A stretch of DNA of 64,000 bases from Escherichia coli (lineage in GTDB: Bacteria > Pseudomonadota > Gammaproteobacteria > Enterobacterales > Enterobacteriaceae). The translations under genes and the position numbers were made by a program. The notes under the pieces are model-generated. The model searched no databases. It had not been told where the DNA came from and saw only the letters and a list, made by a program, of their open reading frames with translations. Positions within the stretch are counted from its first letter, which is position 1; each line of letters begins with the position of its first letter. The stretch lies in NCBI RefSeq assembly GCF_030013205.1, contig NZ_CP122648.1, one strand, 5' to 3'. Below, piece by piece: positions 1-5,079 of the stretch.

Positions 1-63
1 AGTTCCGGCCAGCAGGTTATAAATTTTTACAGTACGTGATTGTTCACTCATTCTGAATGCCAT
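1..63 (-). CDS. tfa: Tail fibre assembly protein Tfa, N-terminal 21 codons only (gene runs off window start)
   Basis: Reverse complement of 1-63 translates [21 protein letters not shown], matching lambda-type Tfa N-terminus; ATG overlaps stf stop (TAATG). Confidence 0.7.
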   Translation of the reverse strand, partial: MAFRMSEQSRTVKIYNLLAGT

Positions 64-1724
64 TATGCAAGCCTCACAATATAATTAAATGCGATGTTTT
101 TAACGGTGTTTTCCGCGTTACCAGCAGCGTTAACGGTGATGGTGTGTCCATGTGAACCAATCGCAACAGAGTGCGTATGAGCGCCAATACCAACAGTGTG
201 TGCATGTGCCCCAGCACTTGTAGCGGTACCTGATACTGAGTGGGTATGTGCGCCAGAAGAAGGCACAGTTCCATTCCCCACCACCGTGCCACTTGATGCA
301 CCATCAAGCCAGTCGAAATTCATACCTCCACTGTTTGGTCTCCTTAATGGAACGGTATGTGTATGTGCGCCAGCACTATTTGCAGTACCAGATACATTGT
401 GGGTATGTGCACCAGTGTTATTCGTTGATTTAGTACCGTAATCAAACGACGATGTGGTTTTCGTACCCAAATCCGTACTGGATGCGCTGGCACTGTGGGT
501 GTGCGATTTAATGCCATCCTGTTCCTGAGACAATACGGCCCGACCACTGGCGGGTTTGCCCTTGATTGTCCAGCCGCGCATATCTGGAATAACACCAGAA
601 GGATAGGCAATAGCCAGTTTCGGATATGCTGCCTTATCAAACGTCTGCCCCTGCATGATTGCATAACCTGCAGGTGGCGTATCTGATGGCCACGGCAGCG
701 GAACACCTGGCGGAAACGCTTCAATATTTGCCGAGCCGTCAAATTTTACGCCGTTAATTGTCCTTGCCGTTTTCAGCTTTGTTGCTGTAGCAGCATTGCC
801 GGATAGTTCGCCAGAAAGACCACCGCTGAATGTCTGTTTCGCCGCCCATGTCTGAGCTTCGTCGATAATTGGCACACGTCTTGTCGTAATCGTGCGGCTT
901 CCCGGATTTCCTGAAATGCGAACCATAAAAAAGCGGTAATTCGCTTTACTTGCAGTGCTGCGCCATACATGCATTGAGCGCCCCGTACCGAAATCATCAC
1001 TCGGACCAACTGCGATGTTTATCAGGTTGCCATCAATGACGCCCCAGTCCATACCGTCGGGAATATTGGTCATGTTATCAAGCCGAACGGTTATCAGACT
1101 GCCCGGCACAAAATCGTAGGTCTGCCAGTCCAGGCTGGTGAGTTTTGCCACTGCGCCACCGATCCCCATATTCAGGGGCAACGAAAAGGAGTTATACACT
1201 TCTCGCCATTCGGTCCATGTGCTCCCGGCGTAGACGCGCTCAAAAGTGCGCCCCTGTGTGGTTTCTGATTTCCCTGTGGTTGTGTAACGCTGCCAGACAG
1301 ATACACCATCAAAACGCCTGATTACTTCCAGTATCCCAAGCAATGTCGCCCCAGCAGCGTCCAGCATCGGACCGTTTGTCGCCTTTCCTGTAACACTGTA
1401 AATACCGGGGTCGGTTAGAACATTCAAATCACCTTCGTAATAACGGCTCTCTGACTGATGACCGACTCTTAACCACGGTTCCCACTGCGGATTTGATGCA
1501 TCCCAGCTTGCCGCAAGGCAGCGAACGTACATATTCCCACGACGAGTGGTATAACGTTGCGTTCTTCCATAATTCCCGCCTTCGAGGATCTCAAGCGTCC
1601 CCTGAGCAAAGCCGCCTTCCTCTGGATAATTGCGTTCATATGAAGCTATAGCCGAGCTACTGTTACGCCATAAACCAAGATGCTCAGCGGCTCCAAGCGT
1701 ATTCAGGTCTATAGTCGTACTCAA
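63..1724 (-). CDS. Side tail fibre protein, lambda Stf-like C-terminal region
   Basis: 553-aa ORF; C-terminal half has [52 protein letters not shown], His-rich GAHTH/GAHAH boxes and ends NYIVRLA; followed by tfa. Confidence 0.8.
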
Positions 1725-2000
1725 AGGGCGGGTAGTTCAAGAAGCTGTTCCGGAGCGTTTGTTGATGATCCCGATCTGCATAAAAATATTCTTATTTGCT
1801 ATCCGTATGGTAACTATGAATATGACAATATTATCTATGTTGAAAAGAAAACTAATGCATTGGGCGTTGTTGTGACGTATGCACAGACTGCACGAGACGA
1901 TGCTGAATAAGATACTACAGAGATAGTCCACTTTTTTGTTTATTTGTCGGGATAAAAACAAATTACCCCGACTCACCATGTATTAATCTTCCGCTTTAAG

Positions 2001-2384
2001 TTAGTCTTGTAGCTGCGCTGTCCTGCTATGCAGCAAAGCGGCGTACTTTAATGCGTCCTGTGCTTTCTGGAATTTAAGTGCATAGTCAGTGGCGATTTTT
2101 TCCAGTTCAGCGATTCGGTTGTCTTTGGTTTCCAGCCAATCAAGTAGCGCCAATACTTCAGGATCCCCGACATCCAACACTGTTACGCGTGATTTTTCAT
2201 AATGTTCGTCGGCAAGAGTTCGACCAATTTTGAAATCTCCATCATCACCATAACCGGAGCAGCCATAAACAACCTGTGCTCCAGATATTCGCTGAATTGA
2301 CATTTCTTCGCCGCAAATAGGGCATTTTGGTACTGGTGCAGGTGAATAACGTTCACGTAATGCCTGATAGTTGATTTTGCTCAT
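2001..2384 (-). CDS. Hypothetical protein, CPxCG zinc-ribbon-like motif plus predicted C-terminal coiled coil
   Basis: 127-aa ORF with ATG start, same strand as stf; no recognisable family. Confidence 0.4.
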   Translation of the reverse strand: MSKINYQALRERYSPAPVPKCPICGEEMSIQRISGAQVVYGCSGYGDDGDFKIGRTLADEHYEKSRVTVLDVGDPEVLALLDWLETKDNRIAELEKIATDYALKFQKAQDALKYAALLHSRTAQLQD

Positions 2385-2447
2385 TAAGTCGCTCTTCTTG
2401 TTTATGTTCTGAGATGGAGATCAGGGCGAACTCGCCCTGACGTTGTG

Positions 2448-2876
2448 TTATTCAGGAAATAACGCCCTGATATTTCCGGCCATCTGACTGGTTATCTGTG
2501 CGGTTGGTACTGGCTGTGACAGGGGGCGTTCTGTCCTGGTTTGTGTCACTGATAACGCCTCATCGTCAGCCCATGCAGCCAGTCGGTAAGCCTCTGCCGG
2601 ATTCATTTTCAGAAGTGCCAGCCCGGCCAGAAAAGCCACGCGTTGGCCGCTTTTGCGGGCTTCCGGTGTAAGGCTGTCCAGCCAGGCGCATGCTTCGCTT
2701 TCGTTCTTGACGGCCGCAGGCTTCAGATAGAAACTTATCTGAGTAAGTCTGAATGTGTTCAGTTGCTGGATGCACTGGCTGAAAATCCCGATGAACGGCT
2801 GGCTGTCGAAATCCTTCTGTCGACCGGGGCGCGATGGGGCGAGGTAGCGGTACTGGAGCAGCGCCGTGTTCTTCAT
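2448..2876 (-). CDS. Hypothetical ORF, possibly an orphan 3' gene fragment; 5' part is antisense to integrase fragment
   Basis: 142-aa ORF; only the part below ~2700 lies outside the integrase fragment; no convincing RBS for internal starts. Confidence 0.2.
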   Translation of the reverse strand: MKNTALLQYRYLAPSRPGRQKDFDSQPFIGIFSQCIQQLNTFRLTQISFYLKPAAVKNESEACAWLDSLTPEARKSGQRVAFLAGLALLKMNPAEAYRLAAWADDEALSVTQTRTERPLSQPVPTAQITSQMAGNIRALFPE

Positions 2877-3221
2877 TGTCGAATCACTTTTTCAAAAACG
2901 AAGAACAGCAAAAACCGTACCGTTCCTATTTCTGAAAGCCTGTTTGAAAAGATCAAAAAACGGGGCGGGAAACTGGTGTTTCCGACGCTGGATTATCCAT
3001 TGGTTCGCGATGTCATCAAAACGGTCGCATCTGATGTTCCTGACGGCCAGGCTGTTCATGCGCTGCGCCACACCTTCGCCAGTCATTTCATGATGAACGG
3101 CGGCAATATTCTGACGCTCCAGAAAATTCTGGGGCACGCAAAGATTCAGACAACGATGATTTATGCCCATCTTGCGCCGGATTACTTGCAGGATGCGGTG
3201 AGATTTAATCCAATAGCTTGA
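2730..3221 (+). pseudogene. Tyrosine recombinase (P2 Int family), C-terminal catalytic domain only; N-terminal half absent
   Basis: Motifs LSTGARWGE, HALRHTFASHFM, LGHAKIQTTMIYAHL resemble P2 integrase C-terminal half; frames upstream of ~2700 show no integrase-like sequence. Confidence 0.65.
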
Positions 3222-3231
3222 AGGTAGGAAA

Positions 3232-3615
3232 ATGAAAGATATTGAACATTCAGGGGAAATGGAAAAGAAAAAACGGGAGTTTATTAAAAAACTGGAATCG
3301 ATAACGCCAAGAGAATTCTTCCGTTTTTTAAATGAAAAAAACGTCACTGTGGTTTGCCTTGGGTGCGGACTGAAAGATACCCAGATAACTGCCACTACAG
3401 GTAAGTTAAATCTCCAACAACTCCTGGATGGTGAAAAAGGGGAAGAGTTTATGACGTACTTCAGGCTTGAACCAGGTCACCCAGGTGATAGTGATGCGAA
3501 TTATTACTACAAATCTTTTTGTGAGAACTGCGGTTATATAACTATGCATGCAGTGACTCCGGTATTGAACTGGTTGGGATCGCAAAAAAACCAGGAAGGG
3601 TCAGGTGATGAATGA
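3232..3615 (+). CDS. Hypothetical protein with two CxxC pairs (zinc-ribbon-like), low-GC cargo gene
   Basis: 127-aa ORF, AGGTAGGA RBS 5-12 nt upstream of ATG, 10 nt after integrase stop; CLGC and CENC motifs. Confidence 0.55.
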   Translation: MKDIEHSGEMEKKKREFIKKLESITPREFFRFLNEKNVTVVCLGCGLKDTQITATTGKLNLQQLLDGEKGEEFMTYFRLEPGHPGDSDANYYYKSFCENCGYITMHAVTPVLNWLGSQKNQEGSGDE

Positions 3616-3907
3616 GTATACTTATATCACGGGTTTTTCCATTCCGTATCCAGGAGGAATTCAGGTGAGCAATCGCAGAAGTCAGGCAAGTCGTGATGAG
3701 TTCGCTCTTGATAGCCGTGTTGCACGAATGGAGTCTGATATCTCATACATCAAGAGAGATATTGAAGAGCTGAAGAGCGATCTCAAGGATGTGAGAGGCG
3801 ATATTGATAAGATACGCACAACAGATTTCAGGCTCATGTTTGGTGCGTTGATTACTACAGCCTTGGGGTTAGCTGGCTTAATGGCGAGAGGTTTTCACTG
3901 GATTTAA
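3605..3907 (+). CDS. Hypothetical small membrane protein: coiled coil plus C-terminal transmembrane anchor
   Basis: 99-100-aa ORF (GTG 3605 or ATG 3608) overlapping upstream stop (ATGAATGA); AGGAAGG RBS; hydrophobic C-terminus FGALITTALGLAGLMARGF. Confidence 0.55.
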   Translation: MMNEYTYITGFSIPYPGGIQVSNRRSQASRDEFALDSRVARMESDISYIKRDIEELKSDLKDVRGDIDKIRTTDFRLMFGALITTALGLAGLMARGFHWI

Positions 3908-4015
3908 GATCCACAAAGTGACCACATCTCTGTTATTTGTTGTGGTTGGCTGTGTTTTTGTGTGTCTGTAAGTCTTTGATAATTATCTAACTTATTGATT
4001 TTTGTTTGTGTTTAT

Positions 4016-4040
4016 GGCCGCTCTGCGGCCTTTTTTCTTT
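4016..4040 (+). terminator. Rho-independent terminator-like hairpin upstream of btuC
   Basis: GGCCGC-TCTG-CGGCC stem-loop followed by TTTTTTCTTTT. Confidence 0.45.
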
Positions 4041-4098
4041 TCACTGTCGAAGAGTCACCGTAAAATCAACGCCATGACACTTCAGCAGAACGGATACC

Positions 4099-5079
4099 AT
4101 GCTGACACTTGCCCGCCAACAACAGCGACAAAATATTCGCTGGTTATTATGCCTGTCAGTTTTGATGCTGCTGGCGCTTCTCTTAAGCCTTTGCGCCGGT
4201 GAACAATGGATCTCGCCAGGTGACTGGTTTTCTCCTCGAGGCGAACTGTTCGTCTGGCAGATTCGCCTGCCACGTACGCTGGCTGTATTGCTGGTTGGTG
4301 CGGCGTTGGCTATATCCGGCGCTGTAATGCAGGCGTTATTTGAAAATCCTCTGGCAGAACCTGGACTACTTGGCGTCTCTAATGGCGCAGGCGTGGGGCT
4401 TATCGCCGCGGTATTGCTTGGGCAAGGGCAACTCCCCAACTGGGCGCTGGGGCTGTGTGCGATTGCTGGCGCGCTTATCATCACTTTAATACTCTTACGT
4501 TTCGCCCGTCGTCATCTTTCGACCAGTCGGTTATTGCTGGCTGGCGTTGCATTAGGGATTATCTGTAGCGCACTAATGACGTGGGCTATCTACTTTTCCA
4601 CCTCTGTTGATTTACGTCAGCTGATGTACTGGATGATGGGCGGTTTTGGCGGCGTAGACTGGCGGCAAAGCTGGCTGATGCTGGCATTGATCCCCGTGTT
4701 GTTGTGGATCTGTTGTCAGTCCAGACCGATGAATATGTTAGCACTTGGCGAGATCTCGGCGCGGCAACTGGGTTTACCCCTGTGGTTCTGGCGCAATGTG
4801 CTGGTGGCAGCGACCGGCTGGATGGTTGGCGTCAGTGTGGCGTTGGCGGGTGCTATCGGCTTTATTGGTCTGGTGATCCCACATATTCTCCGGTTATGTG
4901 GTTTGACCGATCATCGCGTATTACTTCCCGGCTGCGCGCTGGCAGGGGCGAGCGCATTGCTGCTGGCCGATGTTGTAGCGCGCCTGGCATTAGCTGCTGC
5001 AGAGCTGCCTATTGGCGTGGTCACCGCAACGTTGGGTGCGCCGGTGTTTATCTGGTTATTGTTAAAAGCAGGACGTTAG
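4099..5079 (+). CDS. btuC: Vitamin B12 ABC transporter permease
   Basis: 326-aa ORF matching K-12 BtuC; btuCED order. Confidence 0.95.

What the first reader, a model, noticed from the sequence alone, without database searches (positions are those of the whole stretch)
2001..2439. Small zinc-ribbon/coiled-coil ORF preceded by a perfect palindrome
The 127-aa minus-strand ORF has a CPICG...C..G motif followed by a predicted helical C-terminal half. Immediately upstream on its strand lies a perfect 8-bp-arm inverted repeat (CAGGGCGA-ACT-CGCCCTG, 2420-2439) not followed by a U-tract, which looks more like an operator or processing site than a terminator. The ORF lies between the tail-fibre gene and the integrase fragment and does not resemble a standard tail gene.
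Basis: seen in the sequence. Interest (0 to 1): 0.45.

Follow-up and report, generated by a model that had tools for sequence, protein, structure and literature searches.

The report
Truncated phage Ead/Ea22 gene plus hairpin
The small ORF is a shortened copy of a well-known but poorly understood phage accessory gene (Ead/Ea22 family) in a decayed P2-like prophage, and the palindrome before it is a stem-loop that belongs to the end of the neighbouring partition gene, not to this ORF, so the finding is ordinary.

Summary
The ORF at 2001-2384 (-) encodes 127 aa. It has an invariant Cys21/Cys24/Cys42/His61 motif and a confidently predicted long C-terminal helix. The perfect inverted repeat is 2421-2429/2432-2440.

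The ORF is not new. It matches Pfam Ead_Ea22 (PF13935, E=3.7e-29), and RefSeq annotates the identical sequence as an "ead/Ea22-like family protein, missing C-terminus" pseudogene. Its 196-aa full-length relative (96% identical) lies in P88-like (Xuanwuvirus, P2-family) phages, in the variable cargo slot between gpA-parM-parR and the portal gene. Homology stops at window 2014, so the C-terminal domain is lost. Window 1731-2739 is a 1-kb piece of such a phage, stranded between a tail-fibre fragment and an integrase fragment next to btuC.

The palindrome lies 7 nt after the parR stop codon. In 63 of 99 related viral loci the same stem follows parR, with five different loops and four unrelated downstream contexts. 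Ead genes of ES18 and D6 lack it. It therefore marks the parR/cargo-slot boundary and is not an ead operator. Its most likely role is an intercistronic RNA stem-loop; this is inferred, not shown. Interest is low.

The parts
2001..2384 (-). 127-aa ORF: a C-terminally truncated ead/Ea22-like gene. PGAP annotates 2013-2384 as a pseudogene.
   Evidence: Pfam PF13935 E=3.7e-29. phrog_368 E=5e-27. RefSeq annotation 'ead/Ea22-like family protein, incomplete, missing C-terminus'. 96% identical to the 196-aa P0001 over residues 1-124.
2163..2384 (-). N-terminal domain (residues 1-74) with a putative CCCH zinc site (C21, C24, C42, H61)
2007..2162 (-). Long helix (residues 75-126), the coiled-coil stalk of the Ead/Ea22 architecture
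   Evidence: AF2 helix 75-126, pLDDT 91-98. Ea22 is described in the literature as N-terminal segment, then coiled coil, then variable CTD (PMC10834534, PMC7093339).
2013..2014 (.). Breakpoint where homology to the full-length ead gene ends. The last three codons (LQD) and the stop come from unrelated DNA.
   Evidence: blastn of the window against L004 ends at window 2014. Protein alignment A1.
2421..2440 (.). Perfect inverted repeat / GC-rich stem-loop, 7 nt after the parR stop and 36 nt before the ead ATG
   Evidence: The stem core CAGGGCG/CGCCCTG is present after parR in 63/99 IMG/VR loci, with five different loops.
2448..2762 (-). parR/StbB-like partition adaptor gene. Its first ~7 codons are replaced at the 2739/2740 junction.
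   Evidence: phrog_2515 'partition protein' E=3.6e-52. PF10784 Plasmid_stab_B on the L004 homologue. PGAP 'plasmid partitioning/stability family protein'. Homology limits.
1731..2739 (.). 1,009-bp block derived from the cargo slot of a P88-like (Xuanwuvirus) prophage
   Evidence: 100% identical to an intact P2-like prophage of strain EC291, locus L002.
1728..1910 (+). C-terminal fragment of a phrog_1416 gene of unknown function, convergent with the ead ORF
   Evidence: phrog_1416 E=2.5e-36. PGAP pseudogene 'missing N-terminus'.
2763..3221 (+). C-terminal (catalytic) fragment of a tyrosine integrase
   Evidence: NCBIfam and PHROG integrase hits. PGAP CDS. Other strains carry a full-length integrase here (H8-H14).
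63..1724 (-). N-terminally truncated tail-fibre gene that abuts the P88-like block
   Evidence: phrog_295 tail fiber E=5e-144.

Best explanation
The ORF is a truncated allele of an Ead/Ea22-family accessory gene. It is carried in the variable cargo slot (gpA-parM-parR-[cargo]-portal Q) of a P88-like, P2-family prophage that has been reduced to fragments next to btuC.

The protein keeps the family's N-terminal domain, which in this sub-branch has an invariant Cys3-His probable zinc site, and its coiled-coil oligomerisation stalk. It has lost the variable C-terminal domain, which by analogy with lambda and Stx-phage Ea22 is thought to carry partner specificity. In this window the upstream operon (gpA, parM, the first codons of parR and their promoter) is deleted. 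The ORF is therefore most likely a vestigial, poorly expressed or unexpressed remnant.

The palindrome is a conserved GC-rich stem-loop that marks the 3' end of parR and the left boundary of the cargo slot. It most likely acts in the polycistronic RNA as an intercistronic stem-loop. That could mean a 3'-exonuclease barrier or processing boundary, or a weak attenuator without a U-tract, that uncouples parMR expression from whatever cargo follows.

Shown: family membership, the truncation, the genomic context, and the linkage of the hairpin to parR rather than to ead. Inferred: zinc binding, oligomerisation, loss of function, and the RNA-level role of the hairpin.
For: Family membership: PF13935 E=3.7e-29; 283 word-index hits, nearly all named ead/Ea22-like; 452 representatives at E<=1e-3.

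Truncation: alignment to 196-aa relatives ends at residue 124, and DNA homology ends at window 2014. PGAP calls it a pseudogene.

Context: intact P88-like prophages and phages show gpA-parM-parR-ead-...-portal. Deletion junctions lie at 1730/1731 and 2739/2740.

Dispensability: among related viral loci there are 10 full-length alleles and 3 intact 127-aa alleles, plus one frameshifted (111 aa) and one nonsense (82 aa) allele.

Hairpin: the same stem follows the parR stop with loops AGTT, CATC, TATC, TATT and GAAAC, ahead of four unrelated downstream contexts. Mosaic homology breakpoints fall at or just after it. Predicted stability is -13 to -20 kcal/mol. No promoter-like site lies nearby. It has no resemblance to the candidate parC repeats upstream of parM.

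Literature: Ea22 is built as N-terminal segment, coiled coil and mosaic CTD, and is tetrameric and pro-lysogenic (PMC10834534, PMC7093339).
Against: The 127-aa allele is not confined to this remnant. Its junction occurs in 73 of 5,426 complete E. coli genomes, and in at least one of them (strain EC291, L002) it sits in an otherwise intact-looking P2-like prophage. At least three intact sequence variants exist. It may therefore retain some function.

Phage 933W naturally carries an ea22 separated from its C-terminal domain (PMC8614690).

The hairpin core never varies, so there is no covariation evidence for an RNA structure as opposed to a DNA-sequence signal. 36 of 99 parR loci lack it altogether, so it is not essential to parMR.

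There are no expression data. Zinc binding is untested, and no significant structural homologue of the N-domain was found.
Confidence: 0.8

Rival explanations
1. The palindrome is a duplex-DNA operator bound by a dimeric regulator, possibly the ORF's own zinc-ribbon protein, giving autoregulation of the ORF.
Against: The same stem precedes unrelated genes and even an opposite-strand gene. Ead homologues in ES18 and D6 have no intergenic space or palindrome. No sigma-70-like promoter lies within or next to it. A copy with the same arms but a 10-12 nt spacer lies after the full-length gene. Variable half-site spacing is atypical for a dimer operator.
Confidence: 0.06
2. The hairpin is primarily a DNA-level module junction: a short conserved sequence at the edge of the cargo slot at which cassettes are exchanged by recombination between P88-like phages.
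For: Homology between phages with different cargo ends at the parR stop, at the hairpin, or just before the cargo ATG. Loop type travels with the downstream gene: AGTT with ead in 17 loci, CATC with the gp19-like gene in 30. There is one recombinant, CATC followed by ead. The ead cassette in L004/L009 is bracketed by two hairpins with identical 8-nt arms, CAGGGCGA/TCGCCCTG. In 1.15 Mb of related loci this motif occurs only at those two positions.
Against: Arms of 8-9 bp are very short for homologous recombination, and no dedicated recombinase is evident. Conserved functional elements trivially become crossover points. P88's distal hairpin has different arms (AAACGCCCT/AGGGCGTTT) and looks like an ordinary bidirectional terminator.
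Confidence: 0.15
3. The hairpin works on the opposite (+) strand as a terminator. It would stop transcription that enters from the cargo/late-gene side before it runs antisense into parR-parM-gpA.
For: The consensus scan lists it as terminator-like on the + strand only: 8 pairs, 6 of them GC, tail CGTTGTGTTA. The T-rich tail derives from the conserved parR stop region (TTATTC). In the window arrangement a + strand gene (phrog_1416) is convergent with ead.
Against: The T-tract is interrupted and weak. Most cargo arrangements are co-directional with parR. Cargo slots with opposite-strand genes carry their own strong bidirectional terminators (L006 3330-3361).
Confidence: 0.1
4. The 127-aa form is a functional 'headless' Ead/Ea22 variant maintained by selection, not a pseudogene.
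For: Its junction is present in 73 complete E. coli genomes from diverse hosts. Three distinct intact 127-aa sequences occur in viral contigs, and P0007 is a further 127-aa variant (89% identical) with the same LQD end. The AF2 model is very confident for a self-contained N-domain plus helix. 933W ea22 is similarly separated from its CTD (PMC8614690).
Against: The variants differ by a few residues only, so this is compatible with recent spread and mosaic recombination. Frameshifted and nonsense alleles also circulate. [quoted passage not shown] In this window its operon promoter is deleted, and its Shine-Dalgarno is weaker (AAGAAGAG, against AAGGAGAA in full-length loci).
Confidence: 0.15

Closest known systems
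Ead/Ea22-like protein of P88-like phage P88_4B11 (YP_009877445.1, 196 aa; cluster P0001, 'ead/Ea22-like family protein [Escherichia coli]')
   Same: 96-97% identical over residues 1-124. Same position after parM-parR. Same upstream hairpin with loop AGTT.
   Different: The window ORF lacks the C-terminal 72 residues (the F.V.LPD..EYFI..VFQ.LRYERD module) and the distal hairpin. Its last three codons come from unrelated DNA.
Lambda Ea22 / P22 Ead and Stx-phage Ea22 (exo-xis region; Pfam PF13935, IPR025153)
   Same: Same Pfam family. Same modular plan of N-terminal segment plus central coiled coil. Mosaic evolution with exchangeable C-termini. An accessory early-region gene of temperate enterobacterial phages.
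   Different: The zinc-type N-domain of the window ORF was found by tblastn (E<=1e-5) in only 12 deposited phage records: P88_4B11, ES18, ST64B and relatives, D6 and a few others. No record of lambda, 933W or Phi24B is among the 12 listed hits. The gene here lies in a P2-family cargo slot, not an exo-xis region. There is no CTD and no terminal K/R-G-E motif.
933W ea22, split from its C-terminal domain (L0065)
   Same: A naturally occurring Ea22 that retains the N-terminal and coiled-coil parts while the C-terminal domain is no longer part of the protein (PMC8614690).
   Different: In 933W the CTD is still encoded by an adjacent gene. Here it is deleted and replaced by a convergent, unrelated gene fragment.
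Intercistronic GC-rich stem-loops without U-tracts in polycistronic mRNAs, such as REP hairpins in malE-malF (from established knowledge, not tested here)
   Same: A stable GC-rich hairpin a few nucleotides after a stop codon, no U-tract, followed by another cistron with its own Shine-Dalgarno.
   Different: No sequence similarity to REP, and no Rfam family matches. It is a single copy per locus, phage-specific, and its effect on mRNA is untested.

Membership tests
Ead/Ea22-like protein family (Pfam PF13935 / InterPro IPR025153) | Significant match to the family HMM | tested here: met
   PF13935 i-Evalue 3.7e-29, query 2-117 against model 1-111 of 139. The full-length relative matches model 1-134.
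Ead/Ea22-like protein family (Pfam PF13935 / InterPro IPR025153) | N-terminal segment followed by a long central coiled-coil helix | tested here: met
   AF2 model: N-domain 1-74, single helix 75-126, pLDDT above 90. Architecture as described in PMC10834534.
Ead/Ea22-like protein family (Pfam PF13935 / InterPro IPR025153) | A (variable) C-terminal domain after the coiled coil | tested here: not met
   The ORF stops three codons after the homology breakpoint. Relatives continue for 30-200 more residues. The ORF is therefore a truncated member, annotated as a pseudogene.
Ead/Ea22-like protein family (Pfam PF13935 / InterPro IPR025153) | Encoded among early/accessory genes of temperate enterobacterial phages | tested here: met
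   Downstream of gpA-parM-parR, on the early strand of P88-like phages. Next to the eaE and abc2 homologues in ES18.
Ead/Ea22-like protein family (Pfam PF13935 / InterPro IPR025153) | Pro-lysogenic phenotype and tetrameric assembly | not testable with these tools
   Known only from experiments on lambda and Stx-phage Ea22 (PMC7093339, PMC10834534).
Zinc ribbon (Topo I / Zf-GRF-like) | Two zinc knuckles supplying four ligands on beta-hairpins | tested here: inconclusive
Intrinsic (Rho-independent) terminator | GC-rich stem-loop immediately followed by a U-tract on the transcribed strand | tested here: not met
   On the ORF/parR strand the stem is followed by UCUCCAUCUC. Only the opposite strand passes the loose consensus scan.
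Operator / autoregulatory inverted repeat | Overlaps or abuts the promoter of the regulated gene, with fixed half-site spacing, and is associated with that gene across relatives | tested here: not met
   No promoter-like site nearby. The same arms occur with 2-4 nt and 10-12 nt spacers. The motif is associated with parR, not with ead.
Type II (ParMRC) partition centromere parC | Arrays of ParR-binding repeats, normally upstream of parM | tested here: not met
   Candidate repeats (two 38-nt units, each with a CGGGAyT...AAATCCyG dyad) lie upstream of parM in L004 and do not resemble the palindrome. parM and that region are deleted from the window.

The most novel reading that the evidence does not exclude
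The CTD-less 127-aa allele may be a selected, functional 'headless' Ead/Ea22 that co-oligomerises through its conserved zinc domain and coiled coil with full-length Ead/Ea22 proteins of co-resident or superinfecting phages. That would make it a dominant-negative tool of phage-phage competition. The identical-arm hairpins that bracket the cassette may be the junctions at which P88-like phages swap cargo genes.
Probability: 0.06. Interest if true: 0.45.

Novelty: already known. Interest (0 to 1): 0.12.

Why it matters
It matters little as a discovery. The ORF belongs to a catalogued family, and public annotation already flags it as a truncated pseudogene inside a decayed prophage.

Three by-products have modest value.

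- The N-terminal domain of this Ead/Ea22 sub-branch carries an invariant Cys3-His motif. None of the three Ea22 papers read here (PMC7093339, PMC10834534, PMC8614690) describes zinc binding by Ea22. This gives an experimentally testable handle on a family whose mechanism is unknown.
- P88-like P2-family phages have a well-defined cargo slot after parMR. Its left edge is marked by a conserved hairpin and its right edge by TGCACAA repeats. This could help in mining accessory or defence cargo.
- The case shows that an 'upstream palindrome' can belong to the preceding gene rather than to the ORF it precedes.

Tried and rejected
- **Defence-system membership.** PADLOC found no hit for the ORF, parR, the neighbouring small ORFs or the full-length relative.
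- **Known RNA family for the hairpin.** Rfam at E<=1 found nothing in 1600-4200 except a sub-threshold STnc540 hit and a chance Histone3 hit near btuC.
- **The 'third copy' as part of an alternative-pairing attenuator.** Rejected: it is a synonymous minority variant in the Ile-Arg-Ala codons of parR, and it is uncorrelated with hairpin presence.
- **The palindrome as a ParR centromere site.** Rejected: the candidate parC repeats upstream of parM are unrelated in sequence.
- **The zinc-type N-domain shared with lambda/Stx-phage Ea22.** Not supported: tblastn over 50,697 phage records found it in only 12, and the listed hits include no lambda, 933W or Phi24B record.
- **Covariation analysis of the stem.** Not run. 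The seven core pairs never vary among the loci collected, and only the outermost pair changes: T-A, T/C mismatch, or C-G. It would have been uninformative.

Full report
**What is in the sequence**

The minus-strand ORF runs from ATG 2384 to the stop at 2001-2003 and encodes 127 aa. Upstream on the same strand, the layout is as follows:
- the stop codon of the preceding gene, TAA at 2450-2448;
- 7 nt of spacer;
- a perfect inverted repeat, TCAGGGCGA 2440-2432, GT, TCGCCCTGA 2429-2421;
- 36 nt containing a purine-rich Shine-Dalgarno-like AAGAAGAG;
- the ATG.

On the + strand, the repeat finder gives arms 2421-2429 and 2432-2440. As RNA it folds into an 8-9 bp stem with a tetraloop, about -16 kcal/mol. 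Inverted repeats of this quality are rare in composition-matched random sequence: a mean of 1.4 per 64 kb, against about a dozen loci in the window.

On the ORF's strand no U-tract follows the stem. On the + strand, the loose consensus scan lists it as terminator-like.

**What the ORF is**

It matches Pfam Ead_Ea22 (PF13935) at 3.7e-29 over residues 2-117. It also matches PHROG 368 and three related PHROGs of unknown function. A search of 5.8 billion proteins returned 283 hits, essentially all named 'ead/Ea22-like family protein'. The exhaustive search of 50%-identity representatives found 452 at E<=1e-3.

The window DNA is 100% identical to chromosomes of pig enterotoxigenic E. coli. There, RefSeq annotates 2013-2384 as 'ead/Ea22-like family protein, incomplete, missing C-terminus'.

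The nearest full-length protein is P0001, 196 aa and 96% identical. It aligns up to residue 124 (...LHSRTAQ) and then continues with a conserved module, F.V.LPD..EYFI..VFQ.LRYERD. The window ORF instead ends LQD-stop. At the DNA level, homology to a full-length locus (L004) ends at window 2014.

**Protein anatomy**

AlphaFold2 with 138 family representatives gives a confident model, mean pLDDT 91.5. It has a short helix, three short strands forming hairpins, a small helix, and then one uninterrupted helix 75-126. This matches the published three-part description of Ea22: N-terminal segment, coiled coil, variable C-terminal domain. That work also reports that full-length lambda Ea22 is tetrameric and that the C-terminal domains are mosaic (PMC10834534, PMC7093339).

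C21, C24, C42 and H61 are invariant in all 138 representatives. A further Cys, in a 'GCHY' motif, occurs in only 74 of them and not in this ORF. A Cys3-His zinc site is therefore the economical reading.

Support from known zinc-ribbon families is only weak:
- Pfam zinc-ribbon models, E about 0.03;
- an NCBIfam Topo I segment, E=2.9e-4;

No solved structure is detectably related by sequence. The zinc-type N-domain is a sub-branch of the family. Among 50,697 deposited phage genomes, tblastn finds it in 12 records: P88_4B11, ES18, ST64B and relatives, D6 and a few others. No lambda, 933W or Phi24B record is among the hits listed.

**Genomic context**

Window 1731-2739 is 100% identical to part of an intact P2-like prophage, L002 from strain EC291. 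The order there is Cox ... replication endonuclease (gpA) - ParM - ParR/StbB-like - ead' - phrog_1416 gene - portal - terminase. Deposited phages with the same backbone are P88, P88_4B11, Shae_phiSM, 520873 and 503458 (genus Xuanwuvirus, Peduoviridae), and also PhiR44_2 and Chuche, whose records give no genus. Between parR and the portal gene each carries a different set of small genes. This is a variable cargo slot.

In the window the 1-kb piece is stranded:
- To its left, at junction 1730/1731, is an N-terminally truncated tail-fibre gene (63-1724).
- To its right, at junction 2739/2740, it is fused to the C-terminal part of a tyrosine integrase. This removes gpA, parM and the first ~7 codons of parR.
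- Two small ORFs and btuC follow.

A sister strain, ETEC4068 (L003), shows a different deletion of the same prophage. The ORF's natural upstream operon and promoter are therefore absent here. No promoter-like site lies between 2385 and 2480.

**Is the truncated allele just junk?**

The junction that defines the 127-aa form (window 1940-2090) is present in 73 of 5,426 complete E. coli genomes. The full-length junction is present in 167.

Among 102 IMG/VR loci anchored on the parR 3' end I found:
- ten full-length alleles;
- three different intact 127-aa alleles;
- one frameshifted allele (111 aa);
- one nonsense allele (82 aa).

The truncated form thus circulates in at least one otherwise intact-looking prophage (L002). 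The gene is also visibly dispensable and decaying. Published modelling notes that 933W ea22 is likewise separated from its C-terminal domain (PMC8614690), so a residual function for 'headless' forms cannot be excluded. I rate that at about 15%.

**What the palindrome is**

I collected what follows the parR stop codon in those IMG/VR loci without reference to the hairpin. Of 99 usable loci, 63 have the stem core CAGGGCG...CGCCCTG within 30 nt of the stop:

| Loop | Loci | What follows |
|---|---|---|
| AGTT | 17 | ead (all 17) |
| CATC | 33 | P88 gp19-like gene (30), other sequence (2), ead (1, a recombinant) |
| TATC | 2 | gp19-like gene |
| TATT | 8 | opposite-strand gene with its own bidirectional terminator |
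| GAAAC | 3 | yet another sequence, in different flanks |

The remaining 36 loci have unrelated sequence there.

Phage-to-phage homology ends at the parR stop, at the hairpin, or just before the cargo ATG. Ead/Ea22 homologues in ES18 and D6 start by overlapping the upstream gene's stop codon and have no such element. The palindrome therefore belongs to the 3' end of parR and the left edge of the cargo slot. It is not a conserved 'palindrome plus ORF' unit, and it is not an ead-specific operator.

In 1.15 Mb of related loci the motif occurs at only one other place. That is directly after the stop of full-length ead, with the same 8-nt arms and a 10-12 nt loop. This distal copy was lost with the C-terminus in the window allele.

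The additional half-site inside parR (2463-2471) is a synonymous minority variant and is not selected. The candidate parC repeats upstream of parM are unrelated in sequence.

**How it most likely works**

This part is inference. Three features fit an intercistronic RNA stem-loop best:
- It is a stable GC-rich stem.
- It lies seven bases after a stop codon, without a U-tract.
- It is followed by a cistron with its own ribosome-binding site.

Such an element would set the 3' boundary or stability of the parMR message, or weakly attenuate read-through into the cargo. My rough weights for the hairpin's role, conditional on the context established above, are:
- intercistronic RNA stem-loop, about 0.45-0.5;
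- DNA-level module junction for cassette exchange, about 0.15 (supported by the coincidence with mosaic breakpoints and the bracketing of the ead cassette);
- terminator acting on the opposite strand, about 0.1;
- protein operator, about 0.06.

Because the core pairs never vary, the present data cannot separate 'structure' from 'sequence' selection.

**Comparison with the known, and verdict**

The ORF is a truncated member of the Ead/Ea22 family. The HMM match, N-terminal-plus-coiled-coil architecture and early-accessory location are met. The C-terminal domain is not. Phenotype and oligomeric state are untestable here. The ORF is already annotated in public records.

The hairpin is a small, apparently undescribed but unremarkable boundary element of P88-like phages. 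No defence-system model and no Rfam family match. Novelty: already known. Interest is low, 0.12.

The most novel reading still open is a functional dominant-negative headless Ea22 combined with hairpins that act as cassette-exchange junctions. I put that at about 6%.

Noticed in passing
window 3232-3615 (+) and 3605-3907 (+): Two overlapping small ORFs lie between the integrase fragment and btuC. The first is 127 aa, has CLGCG...CENCG (zinc-ribbon-like) and matches phrog_4293 of unknown function. The second is 100 aa, with a coiled-coil segment and a hydrophobic C-terminus, and gives weak hits to XhlA-type 'hemolysin' and other coiled-coil PHROGs. Other strains have the same pair next to a full-length integrase (H8-H14).
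   Followed up: partly
window 63-1724 (-): A continuous 553-aa tail-fibre ORF (phrog_295 E=5e-144) with repeated GAHTH/GAHAH motifs near its C-terminus. PGAP annotates only 63-716 as a pseudogene and leaves 717-1724 unannotated.
   Followed up: no
window 3905-4098 (+): A sub-threshold Rfam match to the enterobacterial sRNA STnc540 (24.2 bits against a gathering score of 38, E=0.019), covering the whole model, in the spacer just upstream of btuC. A strong terminator-like hairpin with a T-run lies at 4016-4030. This may be the native intergenic region at the prophage attachment side.
   Followed up: no
L004 6630-6656 (also L005 4064-4094, L006 4142-4172, L002 7547-7570): Three direct copies of TGCACAA at 10-nt phasing, followed by a T-run. 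They are conserved at the right-hand edge of the cargo slot in P88-like phages, whatever the cargo. They look like a protein-binding array. They are not present in the window, where they have been deleted.
   Followed up: partly
L004 4519-4629: Two 38-nt direct repeats, 73 nt apart, span the gpA 3' end and the gpA-parM spacer. Each contains a CGGGAyT...AAATCCyG dyad. They are a candidate parC centromere or promoter for the phage parMR module.
   Followed up: partly
L002, L004-L012 (P88-like phages): Integrating P2-family phages of the genus Xuanwuvirus carry a complete actin-type ParM plus ParR/StbB partition module directly after the replication gene gpA. Why an integrating phage keeps a plasmid-segregation system is not obvious.
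   Followed up: no
L022 (IMG/VR P88-like locus), ORF after the parR hairpin: The same slot holds a 197-aa Ead/Ea22 variant. Its first 11 residues (MSEINYQALRE) are identical to the zinc-type proteins, but it then switches to the Cys-free N-terminus (LAKQATQGEWVAF...). This is a mosaic junction inside the first helix.
   Followed up: no
L005 3356-3688 (P88 gp19) and L116 2156-2476 (phage D6): A roughly 110-aa gene is annotated 'carboxylate--amine ligase' (note: ClpX zinc-ribbon-like) in P88. There it occupies the position that ead holds in other phages. In D6 a similarly annotated gene lies immediately after the ead gene. The enzyme name looks implausible for so small a protein.
   Followed up: no
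window 1946-1972: An imperfect inverted repeat, GTCGGGATAA / TTACCCCGAC, lies in the 90-nt spacer between the convergent phrog_1416 fragment and the ead ORF. It is preceded by a T-run on the + strand. It may be a shared terminator.
   Followed up: no
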